Of a DNA stretch of 64,000 bases, positions 1,733 through 36,281 are shown piece by piece. Each line of letters begins with the position of its first letter. The first letter of the stretch is position 1. The notes below the pieces were generated by a model. It worked only from the letters and a program-made list of their open reading frames with translations, was not told the origin of the DNA and searched no databases. This stretch comes from Candidatus Puniceispirillales bacterium. GTDB taxonomy: Bacteria > Pseudomonadota > Alphaproteobacteria > Puniceispirillales > GCA-002684695. Made by a program: the position numbers and the translations under genes. The DNA is taken from NCBI GenBank assembly GCA_045565515.1, contig JBJLFF010000004.1, positions 1,359 through 65,358 on the forward strand, written 5' to 3'.

Positions 1733-2751
1733 ATATTGATGCAAATTTCTACGGTAAAACAAACTCATTTAAATTAACTGAATTAATTGAAAATATCAAA
1801 TATACATTTCCTGAATTATATCATTCAAATATTTTAGAAAAAGATATAACTATAGAAAATTGCTCAACAATTGAAAAAGCCACAAAAAAAGAAATAGCAT
1901 TTATTGAGAATTCTAAATATATTAATTATCTTGAAAATTGCAAAGCAGGATGCGTTATTCTTGATCCAAAGTATTTGTCTTATGTAAATAATAAAAATTC
2001 ATATATTTTTAGTAAAATGCCAAGAAGAATTTTTGCTTTTGCTCTTGGTCTTTTGTCACCTGGTAAAAATTTACCAACTTTTAAAAGCTCTATTTCTAAA
2101 AATTGTATTATCAAAAAAGGTGCTCTGATTGGAAATAATGTTCAAATTGGTGATCATGTGATTATTGGAGAAAACTCTGTAATAGGAGATGGCGTATCTA
2201 TTGGGGATTACAGTGAAATAGGATCCAATTGTTCTATTAATTTTTCAAAGATTGGTCAAAATTCTCTTATATATCCAGGAGTAAGAATAGGAACTACTGG
2301 GTTTGGATTTAATTTTGATGATAAAGGAGTTTACAAATTTCCACACAGAGGAAGAGTTATTATAAAAGATAATGTTGAAATTGGTGCTAACTCCACAATT
2401 GATAGAGGGTCATTAGGTGATACAATAATAAATAGTTTTGTAATGATCGATAATTTAGTTCACGTTGCTCATAATGTCATTATTGGAAAAGGTACAGTAA
2501 TATGTGGTCAATCTGGCATTGCGGGTAGTGCTGTAATAGGTGACAATGTTATTATTGGAGCTCAAGTTGGGGTTGCTGGTCATTTAAAAATTGCATCTGG
2601 CGTAACATTATCTGCTCGCTCTGGTGTGACTAAGGATATAAATAATGCTGAATCAATGGGAGGGTTTCCTGCGATGCCAATTAAAGAATTTAGAAGACAA
2701 AAAGCAACTCTAAGCATGATAACTAAACAATTTAAACAAAAAAAGAAATAA
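1729..2751 (+). CDS. lpxD: UDP-3-O-acylglucosamine N-acyltransferase
   Basis: Long run of hexapeptide (left-handed beta-helix) repeats, e.g. IGDHVIIGENSVIGDGVSIGDYSEIGSNC; 4-nt overlap with skp; lpxD-fabZ-lpxA order. Confidence 0.92.
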   Translation: MNIDANFYGKTNSFKLTELIENIKYTFPELYHSNILEKDITIENCSTIEKATKKEIAFIENSKYINYLENCKAGCVILDPKYLSYVNNKNSYIFSKMPRRIFAFALGLLSPGKNLPTFKSSISKNCIIKKGALIGNNVQIGDHVIIGENSVIGDGVSIGDYSEIGSNCSINFSKIGQNSLIYPGVRIGTTGFGFNFDDKGVYKFPHRGRVIIKDNVEIGANSTIDRGSLGDTIINSFVMIDNLVHVAHNVIIGKGTVICGQSGIAGSAVIGDNVIIGAQVGVAGHLKIASGVTLSARSGVTKDINNAESMGGFPAMPIKEFRRQKATLSMITKQFKQKKK

Positions 2752-2752
2752 A

Positions 2753-3217
2753 ATGAATGATATAAATTTAGATTATACTCAAATATTAGAACTTATACCT
2801 CATAGACTTCCTTTTCTTCTTATAGATAAAGTTGAAAGTTTGATCCCAGATGTTTCAGTTATAGGTATTAAATCAGTAACAGCTACTGAACCGCATTTTG
2901 CTGGGCATTTCCCTAATTATCCTATAATGCCAGGTGTTCTTATAGTTGAAGCAATGGCTCAAACAGCTGGATGTTTAGTATCGTACACTGAAGGTTATGG
3001 AAAAGAAAAATCATCTGAAGGTAAATTAGTTTACTTTACAAGTATTGATAGTGCAAAATTTAGAAAACCTGTAAAACCTGGTGAAGTTTTACATCTTTAT
3101 ATTGAAAAACTTCGTGGAAGAGGTTCTCTTTGGAAGTTCTCAGGTATTGCGAAAGTAAACAGTCAAATTGTTTCAGAGTGTATATTTTCTGCTATGATTG
3201 TAGATGCAGGTAAATAA
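2753..3217 (+). CDS. fabZ: 3-hydroxyacyl-ACP dehydratase FabZ
   Basis: Hot-dog fold motifs LPHRLPFLLIDKV and HFAGHFPNYPIMPGVLIVEAMAQ. Confidence 0.95.
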   Translation: MNDINLDYTQILELIPHRLPFLLIDKVESLIPDVSVIGIKSVTATEPHFAGHFPNYPIMPGVLIVEAMAQTAGCLVSYTEGYGKEKSSEGKLVYFTSIDSAKFRKPVKPGEVLHLYIEKLRGRGSLWKFSGIAKVNSQIVSECIFSAMIVDAGK

Positions 3218-4020
3218 TGACTAATAGCTTTCATCCTACAGCAATCATTTCTGAAAAAGCTCAGATAGATAAATCTTCTTATATTGGCCCTTTTTGCGTA
3301 ATAGGGCCAAATGTTAAAATTGGTAAAAATTGTAAATTGGTAAGTAATATTACAATTGAGGGAAACACAACTATTGGCAAAAATTGTCAGTTTTTCCCAT
3401 TTTCTGTTATTGGAATGGTTCCTCAGGATTTAAAATTTAAAGGTGAAAATTCTTATTTGGTAATAGGGGATGGAAATACTTTTAGAGAGCATTCAACCGT
3501 TCATTTGGGAACAGAGGGAGGGGGAGGTTTAACTCTAATAGGCAACAATAATCTGGTAATGACTGGAACCCATATAGCTCATGATTGCAAAATTGGTAAT
3601 AATATTGTTTTATCTCATCATGTTGCACTTGCTGGGCATGTGCATATAGATGATTATGCTATTTTAAGTGCTATGGTTGGTGTTGTCCAATTCAGAAGAA
3701 TTGGAAGTTATTCTATGATTGGTGGTCTTTGTGCAGTGGATACTGATATATTACCTTTTACTATTGCAAGTGGTTCAAAAGGCTCAAGAGCATATATTAA
3801 TGGAATAAATATCATTGGAATGAAAAGGAATGGTTTCACAAAAAAAGAAATTAATAGTGCTTTAGAGGTTATAAAAATATTTTTTAATGATACAGAAACA
3901 CTTAAGAATAAAATTGAAAAATTTAAAAAAAATCAGGCAAACAAGGTAAATGAGATTATTAAAAAGTTTCTAATAATTGAAACAAAAAATGGAATATGTC
4001 ACCCTCTATCAAACCTTTAA
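3217..4020 (+). CDS. lpxA: Acyl-ACP--UDP-N-acetylglucosamine O-acyltransferase
   Basis: N-terminal IHPTAIISEKAQI plus hexapeptide repeats, helical C-terminal domain, position after fabZ. Confidence 0.93.
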   Translation: MTNSFHPTAIISEKAQIDKSSYIGPFCVIGPNVKIGKNCKLVSNITIEGNTTIGKNCQFFPFSVIGMVPQDLKFKGENSYLVIGDGNTFREHSTVHLGTEGGGGLTLIGNNNLVMTGTHIAHDCKIGNNIVLSHHVALAGHVHIDDYAILSAMVGVVQFRRIGSYSMIGGLCAVDTDILPFTIASGSKGSRAYINGINIIGMKRNGFTKKEINSALEVIKIFFNDTETLKNKIEKFKKNQANKVNEIIKKFLIIETKNGICHPLSNL

Positions 4021-4819
4021 ATCAAAAATTAGCTATAATTTCGGGATCAGGAGAATTACCTTTAAGAGTAATTAGTGGAGCTACTTTTACAGGTTGGTCA
4101 GGCGTTATTATAGACCTTTATGATGTACATAAAAATATAAACTCTAATGAATGGAAAGTTTTTAATTTCAAAATTGGTTCAATAGGTAAAATTTTCAAAA
4201 ATTACATTCTGAGCAAATAACACATATAGTGTTATGTGGTGGAATTAATAGACCTAAGCTACATGATATAAATTTAGATTTAAAAGCTCTTGATATAATG
4301 TCAAAAATTGCCTTCAAAGGAGATGATAGCGCATTGAAGATTATATCGAAAGAAATAGAAAAAGAAGGATTTAAAATTATTGCACCTAGTGAATTTATAA
4401 AAAATTCATTATTCCCTAAGGGACATATTGCTGGTCCAAGAACTATTCCAAATCTCTCTAAGGAAATAAAGAGAGGATATGGTGTTTTGAAAAATTTATC
4501 AAAAAGTGATGTTGGTCAATCTGTTGTTGTTCAAAATGGAATAGTACTAGCAGTCGAAGCCATAGAAGGTACTGATGAAATGGTTAAAAGAGCTGGTGAA
4601 TTAAAATTGACAGGTATAGGGCCTGTTTTAATTAAAGCTCCAAAAGTAAAACAGGATTTAAGGTTTGATCAGCCAACAATTGGATTAAATACAATTCAAG
4701 TTGCCTATAAAAAAGGGTTTTCAACTATAGCATGCAAGCATAGTGAAGTTTTAGTAATTGATTTGAAAAAAGTTATTGAATTAGCAAATAATAAAAATAT
4801 TACCCTTTTTGGTTTTTAG
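3996..4819 (+). CDS. lpxI: UDP-2,3-diacylglucosamine pyrophosphatase LpxI (DUF1009), reading frame broken once
   Basis: ORFs 3996-4220 (KLAIISGSGELP...) and 4229-4819 (...VLCGGINRPK..., GQSVVVQNGIVLAVEAIEGTDEMV) are the two halves of one LpxI-like protein. Adding one A to the A5 run at 4197-4201 gives a continuous ...IGKIFKKLHSEQITHIVLCGGINRP... Sits between lpxA and lpxB as in other alphaproteobacteria. Confidence 0.8.
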
Positions 4820-23687: not shown

Positions 23688-25469
23688 ATGGATAATGAAG
23701 ATGAAGTATTTTTATTTGGTGTAGAGACTTCTGCTTCTGGTGCGAGTTGGATACCACCTCAAAAAGCCAAAACTAATCTAAAAGAATTATTTATTCAAGA
23801 GTTTGAACTAACAGAAGTAGTTTCGGAGCTCTTAGTAAATAGAGGTTTTGATTTAGAGGATTTACCAAATTTTTTTGATCCAAAAATTAAAAATTTAATG
23901 CCAGACCCATCAATTTTAATCGACATGGATAAAACAGTTGAAAGAATTGCAAAAGCTATAATTAACAAGGAAACTATAGGAATTTTTGGAGATTATGATG
24001 TGGATGGAGCGTGTTCTTCAGCTATTATAAAATCTTACCTGGTTAGCATAGGTTCTAAAGTAGAAGTCCACATTCCTGATAGATTTAAAGAGGGATACGG
24101 TCCAAATAAAGAAGCCTTGCTAAAATTAAAAGAAAAAGGATGCAAACTCATAATAACAGTTGATTGTGGAATTACAGCTTTCGAGCCTCTTAAAATTGCT
24201 AAAGAAAATAATATTGATGTTATAATTCTTGACCATCACATAACTGAACCAAGCTTGCCAGAAGCATACGCTATTATTAATCCTAATAGATTTGATCAGG
24301 AAGGGAACCTTGGTTATTTAGCAGCTGCAGGTGTTTGTTTTTTAACATTAGTAGCATTAGATAGAAAGTTAAGGCAAACTGAATATGCTTCTAATATAGA
24401 CTTAAGAAAATATTTAGATTTAGTAGCATTGGCTACTATTTGTGACGTGGTTCCATTAAAATACTTGAATAGAGCATTTGTTTCTTCTGGGCTTAAGGTT
24501 ATGGGTTTAAGAAATAACCCAGGTTTAAAGGCGTTATTTGACCTTGCAAATATTCAAGAAATTCCAAATGAACAAAACCTTGGTTATATCATTGGCCCGC
24601 GTATCAATGCAGCTGGTAGACTAGGTAATTCAAAACTTGGGGTGGAATTACTATGTGCAGATAATGATACTGTTGCAAATGAATTAGCAGAAAAGTTAAA
24701 TAATCTTAATGAAAAAAGAAAAGACATACAAAACAGAGTCTTAGAAAGTGCACTTGAAAAATTAGATAAAGTAGATTTAAAATCAAAAAATGTAATTGTC
24801 TTAGCTGATGTTAATTGGCATGAAGGAGTTATTGGGATAATTGCTGGTAGAATAAAAGATAGGTTTCATAAGCCAACTATTATTATCTCCATCAATGAAG
24901 AAGGGATAGGAAAGGGATCAAGCCGTTCAGTTACAGGTTTTGATATTGGTTCTGCTATTATAGCGGCTCAACAAAATGGTATTTTAATAAGTGGAGGAGG
25001 CCATGCAATGGCAGCTGGTCTTTCTTTAAATAAAGATAACTTAGATTTATTAGATAAATTTCTTAATGAAAAATTTTTAAAAATAGAAAAGCCAAATGAA
25101 AGACTAAAAGACTTTAAAATTGAAGCTGTTATAAACCTGAGTGCAGCCAATAACAAAACTGTTCAAGAATTTCAAAAAATTGCTCCATTTGGTGCCGATA
25201 ATATTGAACCACTTATTGCGATAAGAAACGTAAGGATCATAAACTTTAGAACTGTTGGCAAAGAAGGAAAACACTTTTCATTTATTGCAACTGATGAAAG
25301 TGGTGATAGATTAAACTGCATAGCATTCAATATAGCAGGTTCTCCGATTGGTGATGCAATAAAAACTTCAAGCAATGGACCATTAATCCATATTATTGGA
25401 TTTTTAAGAGAAAATAGTTTTAATAATCGACCTCAACTTCAAATTGTAGATTGTTTTCTAGTTAATTAA
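23688..25469 (+). CDS. recJ: Single-stranded-DNA-specific exonuclease RecJ
   Basis: DHH motifs (GDYDVDGACS, TVDCGI, ILDHHI) and DHHA1 (GGGHAMAAG). ATG at 23688 is 5 nt after the hom stop; the track ORF starts at a TTG at 23664. Confidence 0.92.
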   Translation: MDNEDEVFLFGVETSASGASWIPPQKAKTNLKELFIQEFELTEVVSELLVNRGFDLEDLPNFFDPKIKNLMPDPSILIDMDKTVERIAKAIINKETIGIFGDYDVDGACSSAIIKSYLVSIGSKVEVHIPDRFKEGYGPNKEALLKLKEKGCKLIITVDCGITAFEPLKIAKENNIDVIILDHHITEPSLPEAYAIINPNRFDQEGNLGYLAAAGVCFLTLVALDRKLRQTEYASNIDLRKYLDLVALATICDVVPLKYLNRAFVSSGLKVMGLRNNPGLKALFDLANIQEIPNEQNLGYIIGPRINAAGRLGNSKLGVELLCADNDTVANELAEKLNNLNEKRKDIQNRVLESALEKLDKVDLKSKNVIVLADVNWHEGVIGIIAGRIKDRFHKPTIIISINEEGIGKGSSRSVTGFDIGSAIIAAQQNGILISGGGHAMAAGLSLNKDNLDLLDKFLNEKFLKIEKPNERLKDFKIEAVINLSAANNKTVQEFQKIAPFGADNIEPLIAIRNVRIINFRTVGKEGKHFSFIATDESGDRLNCIAFNIAGSPIGDAIKTSSNGPLIHIIGFLRENSFNNRPQLQIVDCFLVN

Positions 25470-25529
25470 AATTAAATTAAACTTTACTTGATTTAATAAT
25501 TACATTTTATTAAATATAACTTATCCTAA

Positions 25530-25605
25530 GTCCCGTTCGTCTAGAGGTTTAGGACACCGCCCTTTCACGGCGGCAACACGGGTTCGAATCCCGTACGGGA
25601 TGCCA
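25530..25605 (+). tRNA. tRNA-Glu (anticodon UUC), CCA encoded
   Basis: 76 nt. Acceptor stem GTCCCGT/ACGGGAT with a G-U first pair, anticodon stem CCGCC/GGCGG with loop CTTTCAC, T arm GGGTTCGAATCCC, 3' GCCA. Confidence 0.95.
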
Positions 25606-25639
25606 TTTTATTAGATAATAATATATTATATAAATTTAA

Positions 25640-27024
25640 TTATTTGTGTTCTAAGATTTGTAATCCTATCCCAAATCCAAGATCTACAACAGAAGCTATA
25701 TGATTATCACTAGTTATAAATACATATTCTGATGCTGTGGAAGGTACATCAAACTCATCCTCTTCACCAGGAAAGAAAAATGAATCAACATGCTGCCATA
25801 ATTGTTTCCCATCCTTATCTACCCTTATTAAAAGGCTCCTCCAAGTAGTTCTAGGATCACTAGAACATTGCTCATACAATTTACTGTCATTTTCAAACAT
25901 TTCACATTCTTCTATCCCTGTTCCACATGCCATCACCGCTCCACCATCACTTTTTGCAGATACACCCCAACATTCATCTAAAACCATTTTCTCATTTTTA
26001 TTGTTAATTTTCGAAAATTTATTTTTGCCACCTATAGGGTTCCCAAATGAATAATTCCAAATTAATTTACCATCTAAAGAAACTTTTCCAATTAATCCGT
26101 CAATTCCTCCAAACCTATCATGCTTGTGGCCAGAAATAAAAATCCCATCTTCTATTCCACTTAAAGAAGAAATATCGATGTCAGTAATTTCACCAAAATT
26201 TGGATACTTTTTTGACCATAAGATTTTTCCACGATTATTTATTTTTATTATTCTGGCAATACCTTCTTCATTATTTGTTTTAGTCGCTATCGCAAAGGAA
26301 TTGTCTTCAATAATTTCTTTTATCGTTATTCCAGATCGTGAATTCTTAAAAATCATTTCCCAAGATGGTTTTGTTGGAGGACTGTCAGAGATTAAACTTG
26401 CTTTGTCGAAATACATAACTAAAGTTTCACCTGATTGAGGGTTACCATAAGATTTAAAGCCTTCAAAACTATCTTTATGAGAATTAGTTACTCCAGACAA
26501 AATTAGACCTTGATCACTTGTAATTAAAATTGACTCAAAAGCAGTATTTTTATTTTTACTCATACTTTCAAAAATTTTTCCCACTTTAATTTTCCATTTT
26601 GTAAATTTATTTTTGCTAAATAACCGTTTATTACACCACTATTATTCTCTGAATATCCAGCAACAAAAACTGAATCAAAAATTGAGACGGCACCATTTGC
26701 TCCATCTCTTTTTCCAGGAGAGCCAAATAAAAATACCCAGTCAAATGAGTATTTTTCTTCTGGACTAAGAAAAATTCTATCGTTAGGTAAATTATCTGGA
26801 AGTTTTATAACAAAGCCTTCTTCAGTACCCTCACTATCAAAGCTTTTACCTGATAAAACAAACCCATTGTTCAAAACCTCAAAACCATGAACTGCATGAG
26901 GATCTGATTCCTCCCCACCACAACAAATTCCATCTGTAACTGCATATAACTTTGTATGAGGAACACTCTCACTGAATGCATTAAATCTAAATAGAATAAA
27001 AAATATAATAATTAAGTATTTCAT
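25640..27024 (-). CDS. Secreted repeat protein of unknown function (beta-propeller-like), reading frame broken once
   Basis: ORFs 26560-27024 (signal peptide MKYLIIIFFILFRFNAFS) and 25640-26584 overlap in different frames. One extra A on the coding strand (plus-strand T5 run 26575-26579) joins them as ...NGKLKWEKIFESMSKNK... Recurrent pattern G-x-I-x-K-[IV]-x(2-3)-[DN]G-K-x-x-W plus several Cys pairs. Confidence 0.6.
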
Positions 27025-27069
27025 TAGTCTCTTTTTTTTTTAAGTAAAAAAATAATTAATTATCAATAT

Positions 27070-27195
27070 TTAATCTTGCCTTCGTAAATATTGAGCACCT
27101 AAAATCAGAGTAGTGAATGGAATAATCATTAAGGTGAGAATTGTAATTGCATAAACAATTTTTTTAAAATTAAAAAACATATGAATTTCTTTCAT
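27070..27195 (-). pseudogene. Orphan short ORF resembling the C-terminal transmembrane helix of a PotC-type ABC permease
   Basis: MKEIHMFFNFKKIVYAITILTLMIIPFTTLILGAQYLRRQD. 16 of the last 23 residues are identical to the C-terminus of the permease at 32360-33172 (...ISTLMIILSTTLMLGAQYLGREK). Not in the ORF track because it is too short. Confidence 0.3.
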
Positions 27196-27480
27196 TGATG
27201 TTAAGTGGTTTTAATATTGCTTTATAATAATATTTTATTAATGAAAAAAATTTTGCAATAGCTAGTTATAAAATAAATTAAATATTTATTTAAATTAAAT
27301 AAATTACAAAAAAAATCCGGAAAAAGAAAAAATGAAAAATGCAATACCCTAGAGGTAAAAGTACTGTCTACATATTTTTGGTAAATTGTCTGGGTACAAA
27401 AATATACAGTATGCTACTAAATTAGGCTATTTAGCCAAATAGTCCCATATAGTAGTCGATATATACTCCAAAAACCTCAG

Positions 27481-27523
27481 TTTCACGGCAATATCACGGT
27501 TTAGTATCCTGTACGGTATGCTA
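27481..27523 (+). repeat. Degenerate direct repeat of the tRNA-Glu 3' half (att-like remnant)
   Basis: Ungapped alignment of 27481-27523 with 25563-25605 (anticodon loop to CCA) gives 33/43 identities in the same orientation. 8 of the 10 differences are G/C in the tRNA versus A/T in the copy. Confidence 0.6.
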
Positions 27524-27573
27524 TATTTATTGATTTAAAATATTATTTTCAAGAATATTGAATTATCAATTTG

Positions 27574-29490
27574 TTATTCATTATTTTTTAGCCAAAATTG
27601 ATACATTCCTCCAAAAATTTCAGGATGCATTTTTTCTAAATAGTCCCAATTTTTAAGGTTTGATTTATATTTATCATTTGGAAATTTTTCTATGTAATAA
27701 TCTAGTATATCTTTTTGAATAACAAATCCAAGAAATTCAAATTTAAAAAGGTTAAATAGTTCAATTAATTCACCTATACAATATCTATATTCTTGTTTAT
27801 GAAATATTAAATCTCTTACACCTGACAAGTTCCAAAAGCAGTTTGATAAAAATATTTTAGATGCAATATCATAACTAATGTTATTTTCTTGAAAATTGAA
27901 TATATCATTTCTAAATTTTTTCATGTCTTCTGGTGTATCAGAGTAATTTTTTATTTTTATATACTCTTTCATTTTTACTACAAATTTTCTTGCTAATTCA
28001 CTATATAAACCAAGCTTTAAATAACCACCGGGTTTAAGGATGTTTTTTAGAACTCTTAAACCGTCATTAGGCGTCTTCATATGATGAAGAACTCCTGAAC
28101 ACTCAATAACATCAAATTTTTTATTTAATTTAATTAAATTAAGAATATCTGACTGTATGAATTGAACATTATTTATTCCTAATTCATTACATTTTCTCAT
28201 TCCATAGGTTAAGCTAGTAGCACTTAAATCAACAGCTGTAATTTTTACATCACCGTATCTGAAAGCGTCAACAACTTGTTTACCTGTCCCACATCCTGCT
28301 ACTAATAATTCAATTTTTTTTGAATTAAGTTTATTCATGGGAAATTCACCTTGAAGGTCATTATTGATTACATCTTCAATGAATAAAGCTTTTTGAGGTA
28401 ATGATGATACTGACCATCTTGGATAGGGATTTTCTTCATAATGGTTTTTAACTTTAAGTGAAACTGGATCTTGAATTTTACAAAGCACTTTTAAATTAGA
28501 GCTTAAACTTTTTTCAATATTTTTTTCATTAATTTGCAAGCTAATTAAATTAGAAAATTCTAAATTTACAGCCTTATAATCACTAAAGACTTCTGTATTT
28601 TTTAAGATTTCATATAAAGGCTTGTAACAAGCTAAAATCGATAAGCTAACTTCATTTATATTTTCATAGTCAATATCTTTGATTAATTCATATAGTATTT
28701 CATTTTCTCTCTCAGAAGTAATATAACAATATTCATTTAGAAAACATTGATGTGCTAGACTAAAAATAAATTTTTTATTTGGAAGTTCTTTTTGTGTGTA
28801 AGCTAATGTAAGTAATTGAAATCTGATTTCAATTAGGCTTTTTTCAATTTCACTATCCTTTAATGAAAATGACTTCAAACTATTCAAAAATAAACTTTCA
28901 GATAAAAATTTATTTAACTTCGAATTAAAAAAATTATTACTTTCCTTTTTAACTAGTCGTTTTAATTCAATTTTAGGAAAAACAATTTTAAAAACGCGCC
29001 AGATATCTTCATGATCAAATTTTTTTAAATTAATAATAAAGTTTAGAGTTTTTATAATTAAGAATTTATTTTTTTTAATTTCTTCGTTACTTAATGTTTT
29101 TATTAATATATTTAATTGGTCTGTAACAATATTCGTTTCATAATTATTTTTGATAAGATTTTCAAAACACTTTAATGCCTTTTCTACATCTCCTGTAATT
29201 GAACAGCATATGCCAAGGTCAAATATAGATCTATAATTCGAAGGTTGAATTTTTATGATTCTTTCGAGTAATAATACTGCCTCTGAATATCTTTTTTGTT
29301 CATTTAGAAATAAAGTATAAATGTTCATTAAATTTATGGAAAATGGGTAATAATTTATTAATTCCTTAATTTTAATTTCAAAAATTTTAAATTCTTTTGA
29401 ATGATAGAGAGAATAAAAAGCTTCTATAACTTTTGGATCTGGTTCATTTGTAATTGAACTATCAGTATTTTTTGTATTTGTTGCTAACAT
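27574..29490 (-). CDS. TPR-repeat protein fused to a class I SAM-dependent methyltransferase
   Basis: N-terminal TPR-like helices, C-terminal Rossmann methyltransferase with motif I LLVAGCGTGKQ and DVIECSGVLHHM..GLRVLKNILKPGGYL. Confidence 0.8.
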   Translation of the reverse strand: MLATNTKNTDSSITNEPDPKVIEAFYSLYHSKEFKIFEIKIKELINYYPFSINLMNIYTLFLNEQKRYSEAVLLLERIIKIQPSNYRSIFDLGICCSITGDVEKALKCFENLIKNNYETNIVTDQLNILIKTLSNEEIKKNKFLIIKTLNFIINLKKFDHEDIWRVFKIVFPKIELKRLVKKESNNFFNSKLNKFLSESLFLNSLKSFSLKDSEIEKSLIEIRFQLLTLAYTQKELPNKKFIFSLAHQCFLNEYCYITSERENEILYELIKDIDYENINEVSLSILACYKPLYEILKNTEVFSDYKAVNLEFSNLISLQINEKNIEKSLSSNLKVLCKIQDPVSLKVKNHYEENPYPRWSVSSLPQKALFIEDVINNDLQGEFPMNKLNSKKIELLVAGCGTGKQVVDAFRYGDVKITAVDLSATSLTYGMRKCNELGINNVQFIQSDILNLIKLNKKFDVIECSGVLHHMKTPNDGLRVLKNILKPGGYLKLGLYSELARKFVVKMKEYIKIKNYSDTPEDMKKFRNDIFNFQENNISYDIASKIFLSNCFWNLSGVRDLIFHKQEYRYCIGELIELFNLFKFEFLGFVIQKDILDYYIEKFPNDKYKSNLKNWDYLEKMHPEIFGGMYQFWLKNNE

Positions 29491-29801
29491 AATTTTTTCT
29501 CAAAGAATAATTCTTTTTTGCAATCATTATGCCGTTTTAAATTTATTTTATTGAAATTTAATTCATCAAAAACCATTGATTATTGGCCCAAAAAAGCTCA
29601 AGGGATACCATATTTAATTCATTATTTAACAGTAAATCAAAAAACTTAAAAATTTGTAATAAAATATCTTATGCAAAAAGAATAGAATTATTAATATTTA
29701 TGCAATTTTTGAATAACTATAATGACGTTATAGATGTTTATTGTTAACTAAAAATTAAATTAATGTAAGTTACATTTTTTTATTAAGGAGAGAAAATTTA
29801 T

Positions 29802-30779
29802 ATGAAAAAATTTTTAATTTTTATAATCCCTATATTTTTATCATCTTCAAGTTTTGCAGACACTAAATTGTCCTTTGCACTAGATTGGAAATTTGAAGGT
29901 CCAAGTGCCCCATATTTTTATGCTATAGATAAAGGTCATTTTAAAGATGAACATTTAGAGGTTGAAATTTCGCCAGGAAAAGGATCATTAGATGCAATTC
30001 CTAAAGTAGCCACTGGTGCATATCCAGTTGGATTTGCAGATATTAATAGTTTAATTAAATTCTTGGATAAGAATCCTGGAGCTCCAGTAATTGCTGTAAT
30101 GATGGTATATGATAAACCTCCTTTTGCAATTGCTGGAAGGAAAAGTCTTGGTGTTAATTCCCCTAGTGATTTAGAAGGAAAAATTTTAGGTGCACCTCCA
30201 CCAGATGGAGCATGGGCACAATTTCCACCATTTGCTTCAGCAAATAACATTAATATTGATAATATAAAGATTGAACCAGTTGGTTTCCCAACTAGAGAGC
30301 CTATGTTGGCAGAAAAAAATGTTGATGCAATAACTGGGTATTCTTTTTCTATGTTTTTAAATCTAGTAAGGTTAGGGGTGCCAGAGGATGATATTTCTAT
30401 AATGTTAATGGCAAACCATGGTTTAGAATTGTACGGTAATGCTATCATAGTTAACACTGATTACGCTAAAGCTAATCCTGATAATATTAAGGGTTTCCTT
30501 CGTGCTGTCTCTAAAGGATGGATTGATGCAATGGAAAGTCCAGAAGATGCAGTAAAAAGTATGATTGCTAGAAATCCTGCAGCTGATTTAGCTTTGGAAA
30601 CAAGAAGACTAAAACTTGCTATAGACGGAAATGTCCATACAGATTACGTAAAGAAAAATGGTATGGGAAAAATCGATAATTCTAGAATGGACAAAGCTTT
30701 GCTTCAGTTAGCTCAGACATATGAATTTTCAACTAATCCTGATATTTCATCCTTTTATACTGATGAATATCTCCCATGA
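29802..30779 (+). CDS. ABC transporter substrate-binding protein, NMT1/THI5-like (NitT/TauT family)
   Basis: Signal peptide (MKKFLIFIIPIFLSSSSFA), LDWKFEGPSAPYFYAIDKGHFKDEHLEV typical of NMT1/SsuA/TauA-like binding proteins, AAGGAG 8 nt upstream of the ATG. Followed by ATPase and permease genes in tauABC-like order. Confidence 0.8.
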   Translation: MKKFLIFIIPIFLSSSSFADTKLSFALDWKFEGPSAPYFYAIDKGHFKDEHLEVEISPGKGSLDAIPKVATGAYPVGFADINSLIKFLDKNPGAPVIAVMMVYDKPPFAIAGRKSLGVNSPSDLEGKILGAPPPDGAWAQFPPFASANNINIDNIKIEPVGFPTREPMLAEKNVDAITGYSFSMFLNLVRLGVPEDDISIMLMANHGLELYGNAIIVNTDYAKANPDNIKGFLRAVSKGWIDAMESPEDAVKSMIARNPAADLALETRRLKLAIDGNVHTDYVKKNGMGKIDNSRMDKALLQLAQTYEFSTNPDISSFYTDEYLP

Positions 30780-30787
30780 AAATAAAA

Positions 30788-30818
30788 TATATGGGGTAGA
30801 CTATATCTACCCCATATA
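30788..30818 (+). promoter_or_regulatory. Perfect 12-bp intercistronic hairpin after the binding-protein gene
   Basis: TATATGGGGTAG (30788-30799), loop ACTATAT, CTACCCCATATA (30807-30818). No T tract follows. Lies between the SBP stop (30779) and the ATPase start (30832). Confidence 0.5.
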
Positions 30819-30831
30819 CTAAGCATATTTA

Positions 30832-31605
30832 ATGCATATTGATATTAGAGACGTTTCACACGAATACCAAACAAATCAAGGTTTACTTCCTGTTATAAAA
30901 AATCTTTCCATTTCAGTTAAGAAGGGTGGTTTTACTGCTATTGTAGGACCGTCAGGTTGCGGAAAATCAACTATTACCAGATTGGTTAGCGGCTTGTTAA
31001 AGCCTTCTAAAGGAAGTATTTTTATTTCTAATGAGAAAGTGATTTCTCCTCTTTCAACTGTTGGGATGGCTTTTCAGAACCCTGTTCTTTTAGAGTGGAG
31101 AAATGTAATTAATAATATAATTCTACCACTAGAAATAGTCTCTAAAAATTTAAAATATAATTTTAAAAGGAAGAGGGCTTTAGAACTACTTAAGCTTGTT
31201 GGCTTAGAGGATTTTGAATTGAATTTACCATCAGAGCTTTCTGGTGGTATGAAACAAAGAGTTTCATTATGTAGATCTCTTGTACATAAACCAGAGGTAT
31301 TGATTTTAGACGAGCCTTTTGCAGCTCTTGATGCTTTTACTAGAGAGGATCTTTGGAATGTAATGCTCAAGTTAAAAAGTGAACAAGACTTTACATGTAT
31401 TCTTATAACTCATGACCTCAGAGAAGCTGTTTATTTAGCTGATCAAGTTATTGTTTTATCAGGAAGGCCAGCAACATTACAATATACTGTACAGTCTGAC
31501 TTTAAGAAAAATAAAACTATTTCAGATTTGTATTCTTCAAAAGTAACTAAATTACTTTCAACGCTTAGACAGCAGATTGAGATAGCTCAGAGTAAAAATG
31601 AATAA
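30832..31605 (+). CDS. ABC transporter ATP-binding protein (NitT/TauT family)
   Basis: Walker A GPSGCGKST, signature LSGGMKQR, Walker B LILDEPF, H-loop ITHD. Confidence 0.9.
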   Translation: MHIDIRDVSHEYQTNQGLLPVIKNLSISVKKGGFTAIVGPSGCGKSTITRLVSGLLKPSKGSIFISNEKVISPLSTVGMAFQNPVLLEWRNVINNIILPLEIVSKNLKYNFKRKRALELLKLVGLEDFELNLPSELSGGMKQRVSLCRSLVHKPEVLILDEPFAALDAFTREDLWNVMLKLKSEQDFTCILITHDLREAVYLADQVIVLSGRPATLQYTVQSDFKKNKTISDLYSSKVTKLLSTLRQQIEIAQSKNE

Positions 31606-32356
31606 AATTTATAGCATAACCATACCTTTATTAAGCCTCGTAATCTTTTGTTTATTATGGGAATTTTTGGTTTGGTTTAATGATTGGCCAAATTATAAAA
31701 TGGCTTCACCATCTGATTTATGGCCAGCATTTTGGAAATTTAAATACCTTTTCCTTGTATATGGTTGGGAAACATTTTGGAGAACTGTTGTTGGTTTGAT
31801 TTTATCAGTTTTTGTTGGCTTAAGTTTAGGCGTTATTATGGGTTTCTCTAAGACTATGAGGATAGCTTTATACCCTTTATTAGTTGGTTTCAATGCAATC
31901 CCAAAAGCTACGGTAGTCCCTGTAATCGCATTAATTTTTGTTGGCATGCATAATATGAATACTATTTTAATTGTAATTCTAATATCATTTTTTCCAATTT
32001 CAGTTTCTATTTCCATAGGCTTATCTACTTTAGAAAGAGAATATGAAGACATTCTTTTATCTTTAGGAGCGAGTAAGTTTCAAATTTTTTACAAAATTGC
32101 ATTACCTAAAACTTTACCAGAATTTTTTGGAGCTCTAAAAGTATCCACAACGCTTGCATTTATTGGAACAAACTTAATGGAGATAATTGAGCCGCATGGT
32201 AAAGGATTAGGCCATCTTTTTGATAGTGGAAAAATCAGCGCTGATTACCCATTAATGTTTGCAGTTTTGATATCGTTGGCTTTGATGGGTATATTTTTAT
32301 ATTACATAGTTGTTTTTCTTGAGAACACTTTTGCTGGCTGGGCAATTAAGAATTAA
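31598..32356 (+). CDS. ABC transporter permease (NitT/TauT family)
   Basis: Six hydrophobic helices, BPD-type EAA-like loop (LGASKFQIFYKIALPKTLP), 8-nt overlap with the ATPase gene. Confidence 0.85.
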   Translation: MNKIYSITIPLLSLVIFCLLWEFLVWFNDWPNYKMASPSDLWPAFWKFKYLFLVYGWETFWRTVVGLILSVFVGLSLGVIMGFSKTMRIALYPLLVGFNAIPKATVVPVIALIFVGMHNMNTILIVILISFFPISVSISIGLSTLEREYEDILLSLGASKFQIFYKIALPKTLPEFFGALKVSTTLAFIGTNLMEIIEPHGKGLGHLFDSGKISADYPLMFAVLISLALMGIFLYYIVVFLENTFAGWAIKN

Positions 32357-32359
32357 TTT

Positions 32360-33172
32360 TTACTTTTCTCTTCCGAGATATTGAGCGCCAAGCATTAAAG
32401 TTGTTGATAAAATTATCATTAATGTTGAAATAGCTGCAATAGTTGGATCAATATAATCTCTTAGTGCATTAAACATTTGTTTAGTGAGTGTTGAATTGCC
32501 TCCTCCTGATAAGAATATTGATATTATAACTTCATCAAATGATGTTAAGAACGCAAATAAGGCTGAAATAATTACTGAAAATTTAATTTGAGGTAAAGTT
32601 ATTTGAAAAAATGCCCTTATACGAGATGCTCCAAGGCTTCTTGCAACTAACTCTTGGTTTAAATCATATGTTCTTAGTGCTGAAGTCATGATTATCATGA
32701 CTATTGGTATTGCAAGAACAGTATGCGCTAAAACAAGACCAGGTATTGAGTTCACAACACCTACTTTTCCAAAGACGTAAAATGTACCTATTGCAATCAA
32801 AATTACTGGAATAATCATTGGTGTCATTAATAAAAAGAAAACAAATTTTCCTAATTTACTTCCAGAAACGTAGAGCCCATAAGCAGCCATAGTTCCAAAT
32901 GGTGTCGCTAAAAGCATTGTAAAAAAAGCAATTTTAAGTGAGGTTACAGTAGCATTTATCCAACGAGGTGTTTCCCAATACTCATTATACCAACGCAAAG
33001 ACCATTCTTTTGGAGGGAATTCCAAATATTGAGACTCTGAAAAGGACATTGGAATTACTATTATGGTGGGAAAGATTAATAAAAACATTATAATAGATGC
33101 AATTAAGTATAGCCAAATTCGCTCACCATGCGTTATTTGAGTATCTGAAGCTTGCTTTCTAAACCAATTCAT
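32360..33172 (-). CDS. ABC permease, PotC/PotI-like (polyamine-type importer)
   Basis: Six TM helices, EAA loop ARSLGASRIRAFFQITLPQIK, last gene of an SBP-ATPase-permease-permease operon. Confidence 0.85.
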   Translation of the reverse strand: MNWFRKQASDTQITHGERIWLYLIASIIMFLLIFPTIIVIPMSFSESQYLEFPPKEWSLRWYNEYWETPRWINATVTSLKIAFFTMLLATPFGTMAAYGLYVSGSKLGKFVFFLLMTPMIIPVILIAIGTFYVFGKVGVVNSIPGLVLAHTVLAIPIVMIIMTSALRTYDLNQELVARSLGASRIRAFFQITLPQIKFSVIISALFAFLTSFDEVIISIFLSGGGNSTLTKQMFNALRDYIDPTIAAISTLMIILSTTLMLGAQYLGREK

Positions 33173-34041
33173 TAACTTCTTCCAAACATTATACTATCTA
33201 ATTTCAACAGCCTTGATGCTAACAATAAAAAAATAAAAGTAGTGACAAGCAAAACAACTCCAAGAGCGCTTGCAGCTCCCCAATTAAATTGGTCTTCTAA
33301 TATTGCAGTTATTTGCATTGAGACCATTATAACTTTTCCACCCCCAAGAACAGCTGGTGTAACATAAAATCCCAAACAAAGAATAAAAACAATAAGAGAT
33401 CCTGCAGCAACACCTGGCAAAGATAAAGGCACAAATACCTGCCAAAAAGCTTGAAAGGGGTTTGCGCCTAAGTTAGATGCAGCCTGAATAGTTTGACGAT
33501 CAATTCGTTGCATCGCTGCGTAAAGAGGTAAAACCATAAATGGAAGCATTATATGTATCATACCTATAAGAGTTCCATTTAAGTTATGTGCTAGCTTTAT
33601 CGGTGTTTCCCATATCCCAAGTTCTATAGCATAACTATTAATCAAGCCTTTTTTTTGAAGAAGTACAAGCCAAGCATATGTTCTTACCAAAAGAGATGTC
33701 CAGAAAGGGAGTAAAACAGTAATCATAAAAATACCAACTAGTTTTTTAGGTATTTGTGAAAGAAAATAAGCTAGCGGGTATCCAAGTAAAATACAGAATA
33801 GAGTAGTTAAAAAACTTACATTAAATGTAGTTTTAAAAACTCTAAAGTATGATTTATAAACTATCATCTTTTGATAATTTTCAAATGAGAAATCACCGCT
33901 TTTACCAATAAAGGATAAAGAAAATAACCAACCAACTGGAATAACTATTATTAGTGTCACAGAGATTAATGCTGGAATAGTTAAAGCAGTTAGCATTAAC
34001 TGTTCTTTTCTTTCAGCAGTTTTCAATAGTTTTTCATTCAT
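33172..34041 (-). CDS. ABC permease, PotB/PotH-like (polyamine-type importer)
   Basis: Six TM helices, EAA loop AASNLGANPFQAFWQVFVPLSLPG, 1-nt overlap with the downstream permease. Confidence 0.85.
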   Translation of the reverse strand: MNEKLLKTAERKEQLMLTALTIPALISVTLIIVIPVGWLFSLSFIGKSGDFSFENYQKMIVYKSYFRVFKTTFNVSFLTTLFCILLGYPLAYFLSQIPKKLVGIFMITVLLPFWTSLLVRTYAWLVLLQKKGLINSYAIELGIWETPIKLAHNLNGTLIGMIHIMLPFMVLPLYAAMQRIDRQTIQAASNLGANPFQAFWQVFVPLSLPGVAAGSLIVFILCLGFYVTPAVLGGGKVIMVSMQITAILEDQFNWGAASALGVVLLVTTFIFLLLASRLLKLDSIMFGRS

Positions 34042-34052
34042 AGAATTTCAAA

Positions 34053-35141
34053 TTAATTTGAAGGAATAACAATTATATCCTTTTGGTTCATATACATCTT
34101 TATTTTATTACCTATCGAAAGGTTACCAAAATCCTCGCTCGTTTTAGTGCTTAACCTAACGGATAAATAATGACCTTCATTTAACTTTACCAATGTAAGT
34201 GCGGTCTCACCTTGAAATACTAATTCTGATATTTCACCTGAAAAATGAATATTTGATGATGACTTTTTATAGTTCTTATCAACTATTGATAATCTCTCTG
34301 GTCTAATAACTAGTGACCATTTCTTATTTTTATCATTTGTATTAATGTTTGAAATTTTTTCAGAATGAAAATATAAGTTGCCCTTTTTTTTCTCTAATGG
34401 AATAAAAGAAGATTCCCCGATAAAGTCCGCAACAAAGGATGAGTTTGGAGAATTATAAATTTCTTTAGGATTACCTAATTGCTCTATTTTACCTTCATTA
34501 ATAACTGCTATTCTATCTGACATTGTAAGGGCTTCACGTTGGTCGTGAGTTACATATACTGTAGTAACACCAAGTTTTCTGTGAAGTTGTTTTAACTCAA
34601 TTTGCATTTGTTCTCTTAGTTTCTTATCTAAAGCTGATAATGGCTCATCCATTAATAAAATTCTGGGACCAAATACAAAAGCTCTTGCAAGAGCAACTCT
34701 TTGTCTCTGACCACCAGATAGCTGATCAATTTTTCTTGAGCTATAATCTGATAATTGAACTGTCTTTAAAGCATCTAATACTCTGTTTTCAATTTCGATA
34801 GTAGATACTTTTCTAAGTTTCAATGGGAAAGCAACGTTTTCAAAAACTGACATATGAGGGAATAAAGCATAATTTTGAAAAACCATACCCACCTCTCTTT
34901 TATGAGGAGGGGTAAGTATCATTTCTTGATCAGCAAACTTAATACTACCTTTGTCAGGTCTATTAAAACCAGCAATTGCCATCAATAAAGTAGTTTTACC
35001 AGATCCTGAGGGTCCTAGTAATGTTAAGAACTCACCTGCTTTAATATCTATGCTTACTGTGTCAAGAGCAAAAACTTTTCCGTAACTCTTTGTAAGATCT
35101 TTGATAGATATAGCTAAAGAGGAGTGTTCTGGTGAATTCAT
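34053..35141 (-). CDS. ABC transporter ATP-binding protein, PotA/PotG-like
   Basis: Walker A GPSGSGKTT, LSGGQRQRVALARA, LLMDEPLSALD, plus a C-terminal TOBE-like regulatory domain. Confidence 0.9.
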   Translation of the reverse strand: MNSPEHSSLAISIKDLTKSYGKVFALDTVSIDIKAGEFLTLLGPSGSGKTTLLMAIAGFNRPDKGSIKFADQEMILTPPHKREVGMVFQNYALFPHMSVFENVAFPLKLRKVSTIEIENRVLDALKTVQLSDYSSRKIDQLSGGQRQRVALARAFVFGPRILLMDEPLSALDKKLREQMQIELKQLHRKLGVTTVYVTHDQREALTMSDRIAVINEGKIEQLGNPKEIYNSPNSSFVADFIGESSFIPLEKKKGNLYFHSEKISNINTNDKNKKWSLVIRPERLSIVDKNYKKSSSNIHFSGEISELVFQGETALTLVKLNEGHYLSVRLSTKTSEDFGNLSIGNKIKMYMNQKDIIVIPSN

Positions 35142-35158
35142 TTTGACATTTATATTGT

Positions 35159-35195
35159 AATTGCTGATGTTGACTTTAAATCAACATCAGCAATT
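35159..35195 (-). promoter_or_regulatory. Perfect 15-bp intercistronic hairpin between the binding-protein and ATPase genes
   Basis: AATTGCTGATGTTGA (35159-35173), loop CTTTAAA, TCAACATCAGCAATT (35181-35195). No U tract on the transcribed (minus) strand. Confidence 0.55.
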
Positions 35196-35204
35196 GATTT
35201 AGAT

Positions 35205-36281
35205 TTATTCGCTTAGAAATTCCATATATTTTTCTAATGCTACTTCTCTATTATTCGCATACCAATCAAGGCTCACTGCTAACATACTTGAGAAGTTTTT
35301 AGGATGTGATGGCAACGCTTCAATCAATTCTTTTGGAGCAGTTGTTATCTCATAAGCTTCCTTATTAGTTGGCCCATATGTGATGTGAAATGGAAGGTTT
35401 GCCTGATACTTTGCCTTTGAAATTTCTCCAAGAAACTTCATTGCCATATCTTTATTTGGTGCACCTTTAGGAATAGCAAAACAATCATAATCTCTTAAAG
35501 CTTCATTAAAAGTGTAGCCAACTTTAGCTCCATCTTTTTTAGCATTATCAAAACGACCATTCCAGCCTGTTATAAAATCAACTTCTTCGTCTTTCATTAA
35601 CTGAGCTTGCATAGCTCCAGATTTCCAGTAAACTGAAATATGTGGTTTTAACTCTCTAATTTTATCTATTGCTTTGTCTATTCCACCTTCACTTGACAAG
35701 AAATCATAAACTTCATTCATTGGAACCCCCATTGCCATTACAGCGGGTTCTAATACACCATCGACATTATTCAATCTAAGTGATCTAGTGCCGGGGAATT
35801 TTTCAACATTCCAGAAGTCAGCCCATGAATTTGGAGCCCCTGGGGTTCCTGGTTCACCATATTTTTCAGTGTTCCATGCAGCTACAGTTGCAAAAACATC
35901 TGATCCGATACAATGGTCAGTATAGGTATTATCTAAAAAGTTAGATACATCCACAACATTGAAATCAATTTTTTCAAGTGCTCCATTTTTGGCAGCATTC
36001 GCTGCGCCTCCAGAACCAGTTACTACTAGATCCCAAATAACGGCTCCAGACTCTACTTGTAGCATAACTTTTGACATACTAGCACCAGATTCTCTGTTTA
36101 TCGCTATACCTGAATCTCTAGAAGCATCTGTAAATAAAGCTGCATCTTGCGCTTTCCCATATGATCCTCCCCAAGAAACAACAGTTACGGCGTCTGCTAG
36201 AGCTGATCCAGCAAGTAAAGTTGAAAAAGCAGTTACATAAAGCATTTTGCTTTTAAGTATTTTTTTAATATTTAGATACAT
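35205..36281 (-). CDS. Periplasmic substrate-binding protein, PotD/PotF-like (family 1 solute-binding)
   Basis: Signal peptide ending ...AGSALA, VTVVSWGGSYGKAQ motif typical of PotD/PotF-type proteins, strong GGAGGGG Shine-Dalgarno upstream of the ATG. First gene of a potFGHI-ordered operon. Confidence 0.8.
   Translation of the reverse strand: MYLNIKKILKSKMLYVTAFSTLLAGSALADAVTVVSWGGSYGKAQDAALFTDASRDSGIAINRESGASMSKVMLQVESGAVIWDLVVTGSGGAANAAKNGALEKIDFNVVDVSNFLDNTYTDHCIGSDVFATVAAWNTEKYGEPGTPGAPNSWADFWNVEKFPGTRSLRLNNVDGVLEPAVMAMGVPMNEVYDFLSSEGGIDKAIDKIRELKPHISVYWKSGAMQAQLMKDEEVDFITGWNGRFDNAKKDGAKVGYTFNEALRDYDCFAIPKGAPNKDMAMKFLGEISKAKYQANLPFHITYGPTNKEAYEITTAPKELIEALPSHPKNFSSMLAVSLDWYANNREVALEKYMEFLSE

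What the first reader, a model, noticed from the sequence alone, without database searches (positions are those of the whole stretch)
25530..27523. Decayed copy of the tRNA-Glu 3' half 1.9 kb downstream of the gene: att-like footprint of an eroded island
nt 27481-27523 (TTTCACGGCAATATCACGGTTTAGTATCCTGTACGGTATGCTA) align without gaps, in the same orientation, to nt 25563-25605. That target is the tRNA-Glu from its anticodon loop to the CCA end. 33 of 43 positions match. Eight of the ten mismatches are G/C in the functional tRNA versus A/T in the copy, as expected for neutral decay in an AT-rich genome. Similarity fades immediately 5' of the anticodon-loop position. A shorter echo (TACAGTATGCTA, 27405-27416) matches the last 12 nt of the copy at 11/12. 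Duplication of a tRNA 3' half is the classical footprint of tyrosine-integrase insertion into a tRNA gene. The bracketed 1.9 kb holds only a frameshifted secreted repeat protein, a permease-tail fragment and about 300 bp of ORF-free sequence. No integrase remains, so this looks like an old island being deleted from a streamlined genome.
Basis: partly seen in the sequence, partly recalled or inferred. Interest (0 to 1): 0.7.

Follow-up and report, generated by a model that had tools for sequence, protein, structure and literature searches.

The report
Decayed phage attachment scar at tRNA-Glu
A worn-down copy of the end of a tRNA gene, with about 150 bases of phage DNA still attached, marks where a temperate phage once inserted into this marine bacterium's chromosome and was later lost. 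This kind of scar is ordinary, but this one ties an uncultured ocean phage family to a host.

Summary
27481-27523 matches the 3' half of tRNA-Glu (25563-25605) at 33/43 positions. The next best match in the window is 23, and the best in 200 Markov-shuffled windows is 26.

It is a decayed attR.
- The ~150 bp to its left (27322-27480) are homologous to the last codons of the endolysin gene plus the P arm of attP in uncultured ~34-kb marine phages (L026, L027, L032; more distantly L005, L012).
- In those phages the same arm is followed by a 50-nt core identical to this tRNA and then by a tyrosine integrase.
- A relative (L021) has the empty site: recJ, intact tRNA-Glu, then the TPR-methyltransferase flank.
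- A 97.7%-identical Tara contig (L028) carries the same scar, with both shared and private substitutions. The scar is therefore inherited and decaying without constraint.

It is not eroded island cargo. It is host DNA that sits next to tRNA-Glu in relatives without any scar (L016, L018, L019). It joins the phage remnant at a 7-bp microhomology (AATGAAA, 27331-27337).

As a result, two alternative versions of the flexible region lie in tandem. This is a new member of a known kind, of moderate interest.

The parts
25530..25605 (+). Functional tRNA-Glu(UUC) gene; the integration target (attB/attL side).
   Evidence: ARAGORN; Rfam. It is 100% identical in L016-L021.
25556..25605 (+). 50-nt core identical to the attP core of phages L005, L012, L025, L026, L027 and L032.
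   Evidence: blastn gives 100% over 50 nt.
25640..27024 (-). Gene for a 461-aa secreted protein (signal peptide; weak beta-propeller-like match), split into two ORFs by a 1-nt homopolymer deletion at 26569. This is host flexible-region DNA, not island cargo.
   Evidence: ORFs. It is 90% nt identical to L016 and L018, against 75% for recJ. It is intact in L016, L018 and L019. The extra A is in the majority in metagenomes, and the frame is restored.
27059..27195 (-). Remnant of a deleted first copy of the pot-like ABC operon. The permease tail (27059-27143) is fused to the first codons of the binding-protein gene, giving the 41-aa ORF 27070-27195.
   Evidence: 81% to L016 14948-15032 and only 71% to the window's own 32344-32425.
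27147..27337 (.). Upstream intergenic region of the deleted operon. It ends at the start codon of the DUF3764 ORF of the L016-type arrangement.
   Evidence: ~78-80% to L016 18817-19023.
27331..27337 (.). AATGAAA, a 7-bp microhomology at the junction between host DNA (DUF3764 start) and the phage remnant (endolysin end).
   Evidence: Three-way sequence comparison of window, L016 and L027/L012.
27332..27352 (+). Last seven codons (six residues plus the stop) of the phage endolysin gene (ATG AAA AAT GCA ATA CCC TAG, versus ATG AAA AAC GTA GCA ACC TAG in L027).
   Evidence: Window 27322-27360 versus L032 2828-2866 is 84.6%.
27353..27473 (+). P arm of attP, with an 11-nt deletion that removes one of the two arm-type repeat units.
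   Evidence: 27380-27521 is 81.1% to L026, 80.4% to L027 and 79% to L032. 27411-27480 versus the L005/L012 arm scores 26, against a maximum of 18 in 500 shuffles.
27474..27523 (+). Decayed att core: the displaced 3' part of tRNA-Glu.
   Evidence: L028 carries the same scar with 6 shared, 4 window-private and 3 L028-private substitutions.
27524..29490 (-). Native downstream flank of tRNA-Glu in the empty-site type, followed by the TPR plus SAM-methyltransferase gene (27574-29490) in a low-GC stretch.
   Evidence: L021 has an intact tRNA-Glu, 78 nt, then the stop codon of the homologous gene. Pfam is and GC.
29802..36281 (.). The rest of the second flexible-region version: an NMT1-type ABC transporter (29802-32356, +) and the intact second copy of the pot-like operon (32360-36281, -).
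   Evidence: ORFs; Pfam/NCBIfam. 32371-36248 is 80% to L016 14970-18850.

Best explanation
27322-27523 is a decayed attR, the right-hand junction left by a temperate phage that integrated into tRNA-Glu.

The phage belonged to an uncultured family of ~34-kb marine phages. L032 shows the gene order: endolysin, P arm, 50-nt core equal to the 3' part of this tRNA, P' arm, tyrosine integrase. Integrase-mediated exchange within the core would place the integrase next to a reconstituted tRNA. At the far end it would leave 'endolysin end, P arm, displaced host tRNA 3' half, host flank'. That far end is what survives here, abutting the TPR-methyltransferase flank that directly follows the intact tRNA in the empty-site relative L021.

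The ~33 kb of prophage are gone. What now lies between the tRNA and the scar is a second, alternative version of the host's tRNA-adjacent flexible region (secreted protein, pot-like operon, its upstream region). Sister strains carry this version right after tRNA-Glu. It is joined to the last 21 nt of the endolysin gene at a 7-bp microhomology, which indicates illegitimate recombination. The most likely route is a one-sided, homology-anchored exchange between two strain types.

The redundant first pot operon was then deleted. The scar has since drifted toward A+T.

Shown: the homologies, the empty site, inheritance of the scar, and its lack of constraint.
Inferred: the integration reaction itself, and the order and route of the later rearrangements.
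For: - Significance of the repeat.
- Phage contigs with only the tRNA 3' part next to integrases: 12 of 13 IMG/VR hits; L013 integrase; L012 integrase; L032.
- Arm homology: score 26 against a shuffle maximum of 18. Identity is 81.1% to L026 (E 9e-27), 80.4% to L027 and 79% to L032 over 143 nt.
- Endolysin-end homology: 84.6% over 39 nt.
- Empty site in L021.
- Same scar in an independent Tara contig with shared and private changes. The scar diverges by 8% against 1% for the adjoining gene.
- Junction-spanning contigs in several metagenomes.
- Bracketed DNA collinear with L016, L018 and L019, which have no scar. It is 90% identical to them, against 75% for the neighbouring recJ.
- Microhomology at the junction.
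- Phage present as particles: it occurs mostly in viromes, and one virome contig spans an intact attP.
Against: - No lysogen with an intact prophage at this tRNA was found. Every integrase homologue sits on a contig of at most 37 kb.
- Logan contigs break at the core, so present-day attL/attR junctions could not be seen.
- The phage GC content (35-40%) is somewhat above the host's (30-33%).
- The 50-nt core may also occur in other bacteria, so these exact phages need not infect only this lineage.
- The route that placed host DNA between tRNA and scar is not resolved. Three routes remain open: donor DNA replacing the prophage, import of scar plus flank into the other strain type, or re-integration of a small circle.
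Confidence: 0.85

Rival explanations
1. This is an eroding cargo island. On this view the 1.9 kb between the tRNA and its half-copy is what remains of an integrative element. The secreted protein and the permease fragment would be its cargo, and the integrase would have been deleted.
For: The segment is bracketed by att-type repeats. The secreted-protein gene is 90% identical to L016 and L018, against 75% for core genes, so it has moved between lineages. A variant is not excluded: a ~6-kb circle carrying this segment plus the attR site could have formed by AATGAAA microhomology in another lysogen and then inserted at the tRNA.
Against: The same genes, with the same 33-bp tRNA-to-gene junction, follow tRNA-Glu in L018 and L019 with no downstream half-copy. 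In L016 they do too, with one extra ORF in between. No P' arm, integrase or other element sequence follows the tRNA. The permease fragment is a remnant of an ordinary chromosomal operon that is intact in L016.
Confidence: 0.08
2. This is a partial duplication of the tRNA gene by a mechanism that involves no phage (unequal crossing-over or replication slippage), followed by decay.
For: The repeat is direct and in the same orientation. The region is a hot spot for rearrangement: there are independent pot deletions in L018/L019 and in the window.
Against: The sequence immediately left of the copy is not tRNA 5' half or recJ. It is collinear with the phage endolysin end plus P arm. The left boundary coincides with phage attP core boundaries.
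Confidence: 0.03
3. The pattern is a chance match in AT-rich DNA, or an assembly chimera.
For: The window is 30% GC, and short AT-rich matches abound (one search lists many weak hits).
Against: The match is 33/43, against a null maximum of 26. The matching segment is GC-rich relative to its surroundings. The same scar and junctions occur in an independent Tara assembly and in Logan contigs from four other runs.
Confidence: 0.01

Closest known systems
attR/attL scars of tyrosine-integrase phages and islands that target the anticodon-loop-to-3'-end segment of tRNA genes (sublocation classes described by K. P. Williams, 2002; recalled from my own knowledge)
   Same: A direct repeat of the tRNA 3' segment lies downstream of an intact tRNA. 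The attP core equals that segment and sits beside a tyrosine integrase. The displaced copy is non-functional and decays.
   Different: Almost the whole element is gone, leaving ~150 bp of arm. The space between the repeats has been refilled with host DNA of another strain type.
HTVC019P-type pelagiphages integrating into SAR11 tRNA genes (Zhao et al., bioRxiv 10.1101/410191, read)
   Same: These are marine phages of streamlined AT-rich alphaproteobacteria with tyrosine integrases. Their attP cores of 11-46 bp match host tRNA genes, and hybrid junctions were recovered from metagenomes.
   Different: Those phages target tRNA-Cys, tRNA-Leu and tRNA-Arg, not tRNA-Glu, and their attP lies between the integrase and the RNA polymerase. 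Here attP lies between the endolysin and the integrase. The integrase is at most 26% identical to any cultured phage, and the endolysin is 34-41% identical to pelagiphage lysozymes. The host is not shown to be SAR11.
tRNA-flanked genomic islands of Prochlorococcus with repeats of tRNA 3' ends (Coleman et al., 2006) and the 42-bp tRNA-Leu match of cyanophage P-SSP7 (own knowledge; P-SSP7 is also mentioned)
   Same: A hypervariable, low-GC region starts at a tRNA gene. Partial tRNA repeats within it are read as phage integration footprints. TPR/methyltransferase-type genes populate such islands; the homologues found here include Prochlorococcus proteins.
   Different: Here the footprint still carries recognisable phage arm sequence, so the responsible phage family can be named.
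Homology-facilitated illegitimate recombination, described in naturally transformable bacteria (de Vries and Wackernagel, 2002; own knowledge)
   Same: One end of the incoming DNA is anchored by homology and the other is joined at a few bases of microhomology. This would give the observed AATGAAA junction and the tandem arrangement.
   Different: This is not demonstrated here. The mechanism is inferred from the junction only, and competence of this lineage is unknown.

Membership tests
Prophage/integrative-element att scar at a tRNA gene (tyrosine integrase) | A direct repeat of the tRNA 3' segment lies downstream of an intact tRNA, and the match is beyond chance. | tested here: met
   33/43 positions match, against a null maximum of 26.
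Prophage/integrative-element att scar at a tRNA gene (tyrosine integrase) | A matching attP (the same core plus a homologous arm) lies next to a tyrosine integrase in a free element. | tested here: met
   L012, L027 and L032 have the order endolysin, P arm, 50-nt core, integrase. The arm is 79-81% identical to window 27380-27480.
Prophage/integrative-element att scar at a tRNA gene (tyrosine integrase) | A relative has an empty site with the same downstream flank. | tested here: met
   L021 has recJ, an intact tRNA-Glu, 78 nt, then the TPR-methyltransferase gene.
Prophage/integrative-element att scar at a tRNA gene (tyrosine integrase) | Integrase or other element genes lie between the repeats. 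| tested here: not met
   Only 21 nt of the endolysin gene plus the arm remain. blastn and tblastx of the phage loci against the window find nothing else. This fits a scar, not a resident prophage.
Prophage/integrative-element att scar at a tRNA gene (tyrosine integrase) | Integrase-catalysed attP x attB recombination is demonstrated. | not testable with these tools
   This needs an in vivo or in vitro recombination assay.
Cargo-carrying genomic island | The genes between the repeats are foreign to the site, meaning absent from it in relatives that lack the repeats. | tested here: not met
   The secreted-protein gene and the pot remnant follow tRNA-Glu in L016, L018 and L019, which have no half-copy.
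HTVC019P-type pelagiphages (for the phage) | The integrase lies upstream of a T7-type RNA polymerase with attP between them, and the core genes are closely related. | tested here: inconclusive
   In L032, attP lies between the endolysin and the integrase, and no RNA polymerase is seen in the 14 kb read. The integrase is at most 26% identical to cultured phages. The rest of the 33.6-kb genome was not read.
tRNA pseudogene from gene duplication | The 5' half or the upstream flank of the tRNA is also duplicated. | tested here: not met
   Upstream of the copy is phage arm sequence, not tRNA 5' half.

The most novel reading that the evidence does not exclude
The scar is a molecular fossil that assigns a globally distributed, uncultured ~34-kb integrase-bearing phage family (L027/L032 type, abundant in viromes) to an uncultured, streamlined AT-rich alphaproteobacterial lineage. 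It would also show that lysogeny at tRNA-Glu, followed by microhomology-mediated loss of the prophage, is one way these genomes build hypervariable regions: two alternative alleles of a flexible region end up stacked in tandem. In addition, the two diverging copies of the scar (window and L028) have a known ancestral sequence, so they give a direct readout of the lineage's GC-to-AT mutation bias.
Probability: 0.45. Interest if true: 0.55.

Novelty: new member of a known kind. Interest (0 to 1): 0.4.

Why it matters
- Prophages are rarely seen in streamlined marine bacteria. A decayed attR that still carries phage arm sequence is direct evidence of past lysogeny in such a lineage.
- It links host and phage without culture.
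- It shows concretely how a tRNA integration site becomes the edge of a hypervariable region. Five different arrangements follow the same 100%-conserved tRNA-Glu in the few relatives examined.
- The scar is a pseudo-sequence with a known ancestor, which makes it useful for measuring the neutral mutation spectrum.

Tried and rejected
- The single genome-contig scan, seeded with RecJ, found only Lachnospiraceae and was wasted.
- L024 matched the arm-plus-core pattern by chance inside a coding region.
- Against L005/L012 alone, homology of 27300-27410 was not significant (21/500 and 113/500 shuffles). It became convincing only with L027 and L032.
- I first read the 'echo' at 27405-27416 as a possible second tRNA remnant. 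I rejected that because it is part of the phage arm.
- Rfam found nothing but the tRNA in 24500-30000 at E<=1.
- The integrase has no close cultured relative. A 230-aa phage ORF found nothing.
- The search for lysogens failed. All integrase homologues lie on phage-sized contigs, a viral-contig scan gave only near-identical phages, and Logan contigs laid on attP break at the core.
- Host taxonomy could not be settled. The relatives are unnamed, the named RecJ relatives are Rhodospirillales at ~44%, and literature and supplement look-ups for the SAG accession found nothing.

Full report
**Observation.** The window holds one tRNA gene, tRNA-Glu(UUC), at 25530-25605 on the + strand.
- The stretch 27481-27523 aligns to 25563-25605 without gaps, in the same orientation, at 33 of 43 positions.
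- The 43-mer's next best match on either strand of the window is 23. The best over 200 Markov-shuffled windows is 26. The per-position probability of 33 or more matches is about 2e-14.
- Eight of the ten differences are G/C in the tRNA and A/T in the copy.
- Rfam sees no RNA family other than the tRNA between 24500 and 30000.

**Phage attP sites with the same core.**
- An exact search for the 43-mer in IMG/VR found 13 viral contigs. Twelve of them carry only the 3' part of the tRNA, with unrelated sequence where the 5' half would be.
- Their left boundaries fall at the anticodon loop, 7 nt further left, or 17 nt further left, depending on the group.
- L013 has a tyrosine integrase 20 nt from the core, followed by an excisionase-like gene, repressor-like genes and a terminase.
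- L012 has the order tail fibre, lysis genes, endolysin, core, small ORF, tyrosine integrase.

tRNA-Glu is therefore an attachment site for several phage families.

**The sequence left of the copy is phage arm.**
- Window 27411-27480 aligns to the P arm of L005/L012 with a local score of 26, against a maximum of 18 in 500 shuffles.
- A metagenome scan with an arm-plus-core pattern found L026 and L027. They match window 27380-27521 at 81.1% (E 9e-27) and 80.4%.
- L032 is a 33,582-bp metagenome contig, 93-96% identical to L027. It shows the phage layout: endolysin 2412-2858, P arm, 50-nt core 2992-3041 identical to window 25556-25605, integrase 3208-4350, a DNA methyltransferase, small and large terminase, and a T7-type portal.
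- Window 27322-27360 also matches the last 31 nt of the L032 endolysin gene and the 8 nt after it at 84.6%. The window reads ATG AAA AAT GCA ATA CCC TAG where L027 reads ATG AAA AAC GTA GCA ACC TAG.
- No other part of the window resembles these phages.

So 27322-27523 has exactly the structure expected of an attR: the far end of the prophage (endolysin end and P arm), then the core.

**The empty site.** RecJ relatives are few (80%, 75%, then 55-60%, then ~44%). All of those read carry a 100%-identical tRNA-Glu after recJ. In L021 the intact tRNA-Glu is followed after 78 nt by the stop codon of the TPR plus SAM-methyltransferase gene. That gene follows the scar in the window, and the first bases of the two flanks align. 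The decayed copy thus sits where L021 has the 3' part of its functional tRNA.

**The scar is real, inherited and unconstrained.**
- L028, a Tara Oceans contig 97.7% identical to window 27293-29799, carries the same scar.
- Relative to the tRNA, the two copies share six substitutions. The window has four of its own, all GC to AT, and L028 has three of its own.
- The scar differs by 8% between the two, while the adjoining gene differs by 1%.
- Logan contigs from four other marine metagenomes cover the junctions (for example 26966-27583 and 27354-27800).

**What lies between the tRNA and the scar.**
- Window 25631-27143 is collinear with L016 13530-15032 (88%) and with L018/L019. In those loci, the intact 460-461-aa secreted-protein gene follows tRNA-Glu through the same short junction, and there is no half-copy downstream.
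- The window then has the last ~85 nt of a permease gene (81% to L016; only 71% to the window's own permease at 32344-32425). These are fused to the first codons and the upstream region of the binding-protein gene of the same pot-like operon (27147-27337, ~78% to L016 18817-19023). This is an internal deletion of an operon that is intact in L016.
- Host homology ends at the start codon of a DUF3764 ORF. Phage homology begins there, and the two share AATGAAA (27331-27337).
- To the right of the scar come the TPR-methyltransferase, an NMT1-type ABC transporter, an intact second pot-like operon, the DUF3764 ORF, and the rest of the conserved backbone.

The window therefore carries two alternative versions of the tRNA-adjacent flexible region in tandem, separated by the phage scar. 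The secreted-protein gene is 90% identical to L016/L018 while recJ beside it is 75%. That segment has therefore been exchanged between lineages more recently than the core diverged.

**Most likely history** (inferred, not shown).
1. A phage of the L027/L032 type integrated into tRNA-Glu of a chromosome of the L021 type.
2. The prophage body was then lost in an illegitimate join at AATGAAA, which coupled the endolysin end to flexible-region DNA of the L016/L018 type. This fits a one-sided, homology-anchored exchange between strain types.
3. The evidence cannot tell whether donor DNA replaced the prophage, whether scar plus flank was imported into the other type, or whether a small circle carrying the attR re-inserted at the tRNA.
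4. The redundant first pot operon was deleted, and the scar has drifted toward A+T.

**The frameshift.** It is a missing A in a homopolymer at 26569. Most environmental contigs have the A, and adding it restores a 461-aa ORF. It is either a recent strain-specific lesion or a sequencing error.

**Comparison with known systems.** This is a standard tRNA-targeting tyrosine-integrase footprint. Cultured pelagiphages integrate into tRNA-Cys, tRNA-Leu and tRNA-Arg of SAR11 (bioRxiv 10.1101/410191). tRNA-Glu and this phage family are not among them. The integrase is at most 26% identical to any cultured phage, and the endolysin is 34-41% identical to pelagiphage lysozymes. The phage occurs mostly in viromes, where a contig spans an intact attP. 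No lysogen was found.

**Host identity.** It is unresolved. The closest named RecJ relatives are Thalassospira and Magnetovibrio at ~44%, so 'Pelagibacterales' is unverified.

**Verdict.** The finding is real, and its central idea (an integrase footprint) is right. The nature of the element (a phage) and of the bracketed DNA (host, not cargo) needed correcting. It is a new member of a known kind. Interest is moderate, mainly for the host-phage link and as a worked example of how a flexible region is built at a tRNA.

Noticed in passing
L032:2869-2889 and 3110-3130; L027:1722-1741 and 1963-1982; L029:5585-5606: Each attP has two 11-nt-spaced direct repeats on either side of the core, which look like arm-type integrase sites. 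L032 and L026 use TTGTGGCACA, L027 uses TTGTACCCA, and L012 uses TGTGTCACA. L027 and L032 are 93-96% identical overall, yet all four repeats differ between them. The first ~35 residues of their integrases also differ (with an indel), while the rest is nearly identical. This looks like a co-varying swap of the arm-binding module and its sites.
   Followed up: partly
window 27000-29800: GC drops to 0.20-0.25, against ~0.31-0.33 around it. The drop covers the scar, the TPR plus SAM-methyltransferase gene and its upstream region. The nearest homologues outside the clade (34-43% identity) include TPR-methyltransferases of Prochlorococcus.
   Followed up: partly
L018:6565-6659, L019:5517-5611: There is an independent deletion in relatives. 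The permease tail is joined directly to the 257-aa methyltransferase gene, which removes the pot-like operon, the DUF3764 ORF and the 325-aa ORF. The end points differ from those of the window's deletion, so loss of this operon is recurrent.
   Followed up: yes
L016:12167-12952; L017:12105-12797: More variation occurs right after the same tRNA-Glu. L016 has an extra 261-aa ORF with no Pfam match between the tRNA and the secreted-protein gene. L017 has a MORN-repeat protein there instead.
   Followed up: partly
L023 (reverse complement) 139-193; L022/L023 junction at window 27527: In L022 and L023 the TPR-methyltransferase converges on a 95-aa ORF with no tRNA present. Homology to the window starts 4 nt after the end of the scar core. 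About 390 bp further left, L023 has TTCGGTTGCC-TACGGGATGCCA followed by an A/T flank. This resembles the T-loop-to-3'-end of tRNA-Glu (local score 19; 4 of 1000 shuffles reach it) and may be a third, shorter remnant.
   Followed up: partly
L003-L015 (IMG/VR): At least four unrelated attP contexts share the tRNA-Glu 3' part. Their left boundaries differ (44, 50 and 60 nt of identity), and the GC content of the contigs ranges from 39 to 50%. They probably include phages of other hosts with the same tRNA end. L014 instead carries a complete Trp-Gly-Glu tRNA cluster.
   Followed up: partly
window 25549-25592: Logan contig depth over the central part of the tRNA reaches 1,500-4,200, against 15-50 for the flanks. 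The loose ends show other acceptor stems. Much more abundant organisms therefore share this internal tRNA segment but not the 3' acceptor end that the phage core matches.
   Followed up: no
window 26569: The frameshift that splits the secreted-protein gene is one missing A in an A-run. About two thirds of contig depth in four metagenomes has the extra A.
   Followed up: yes
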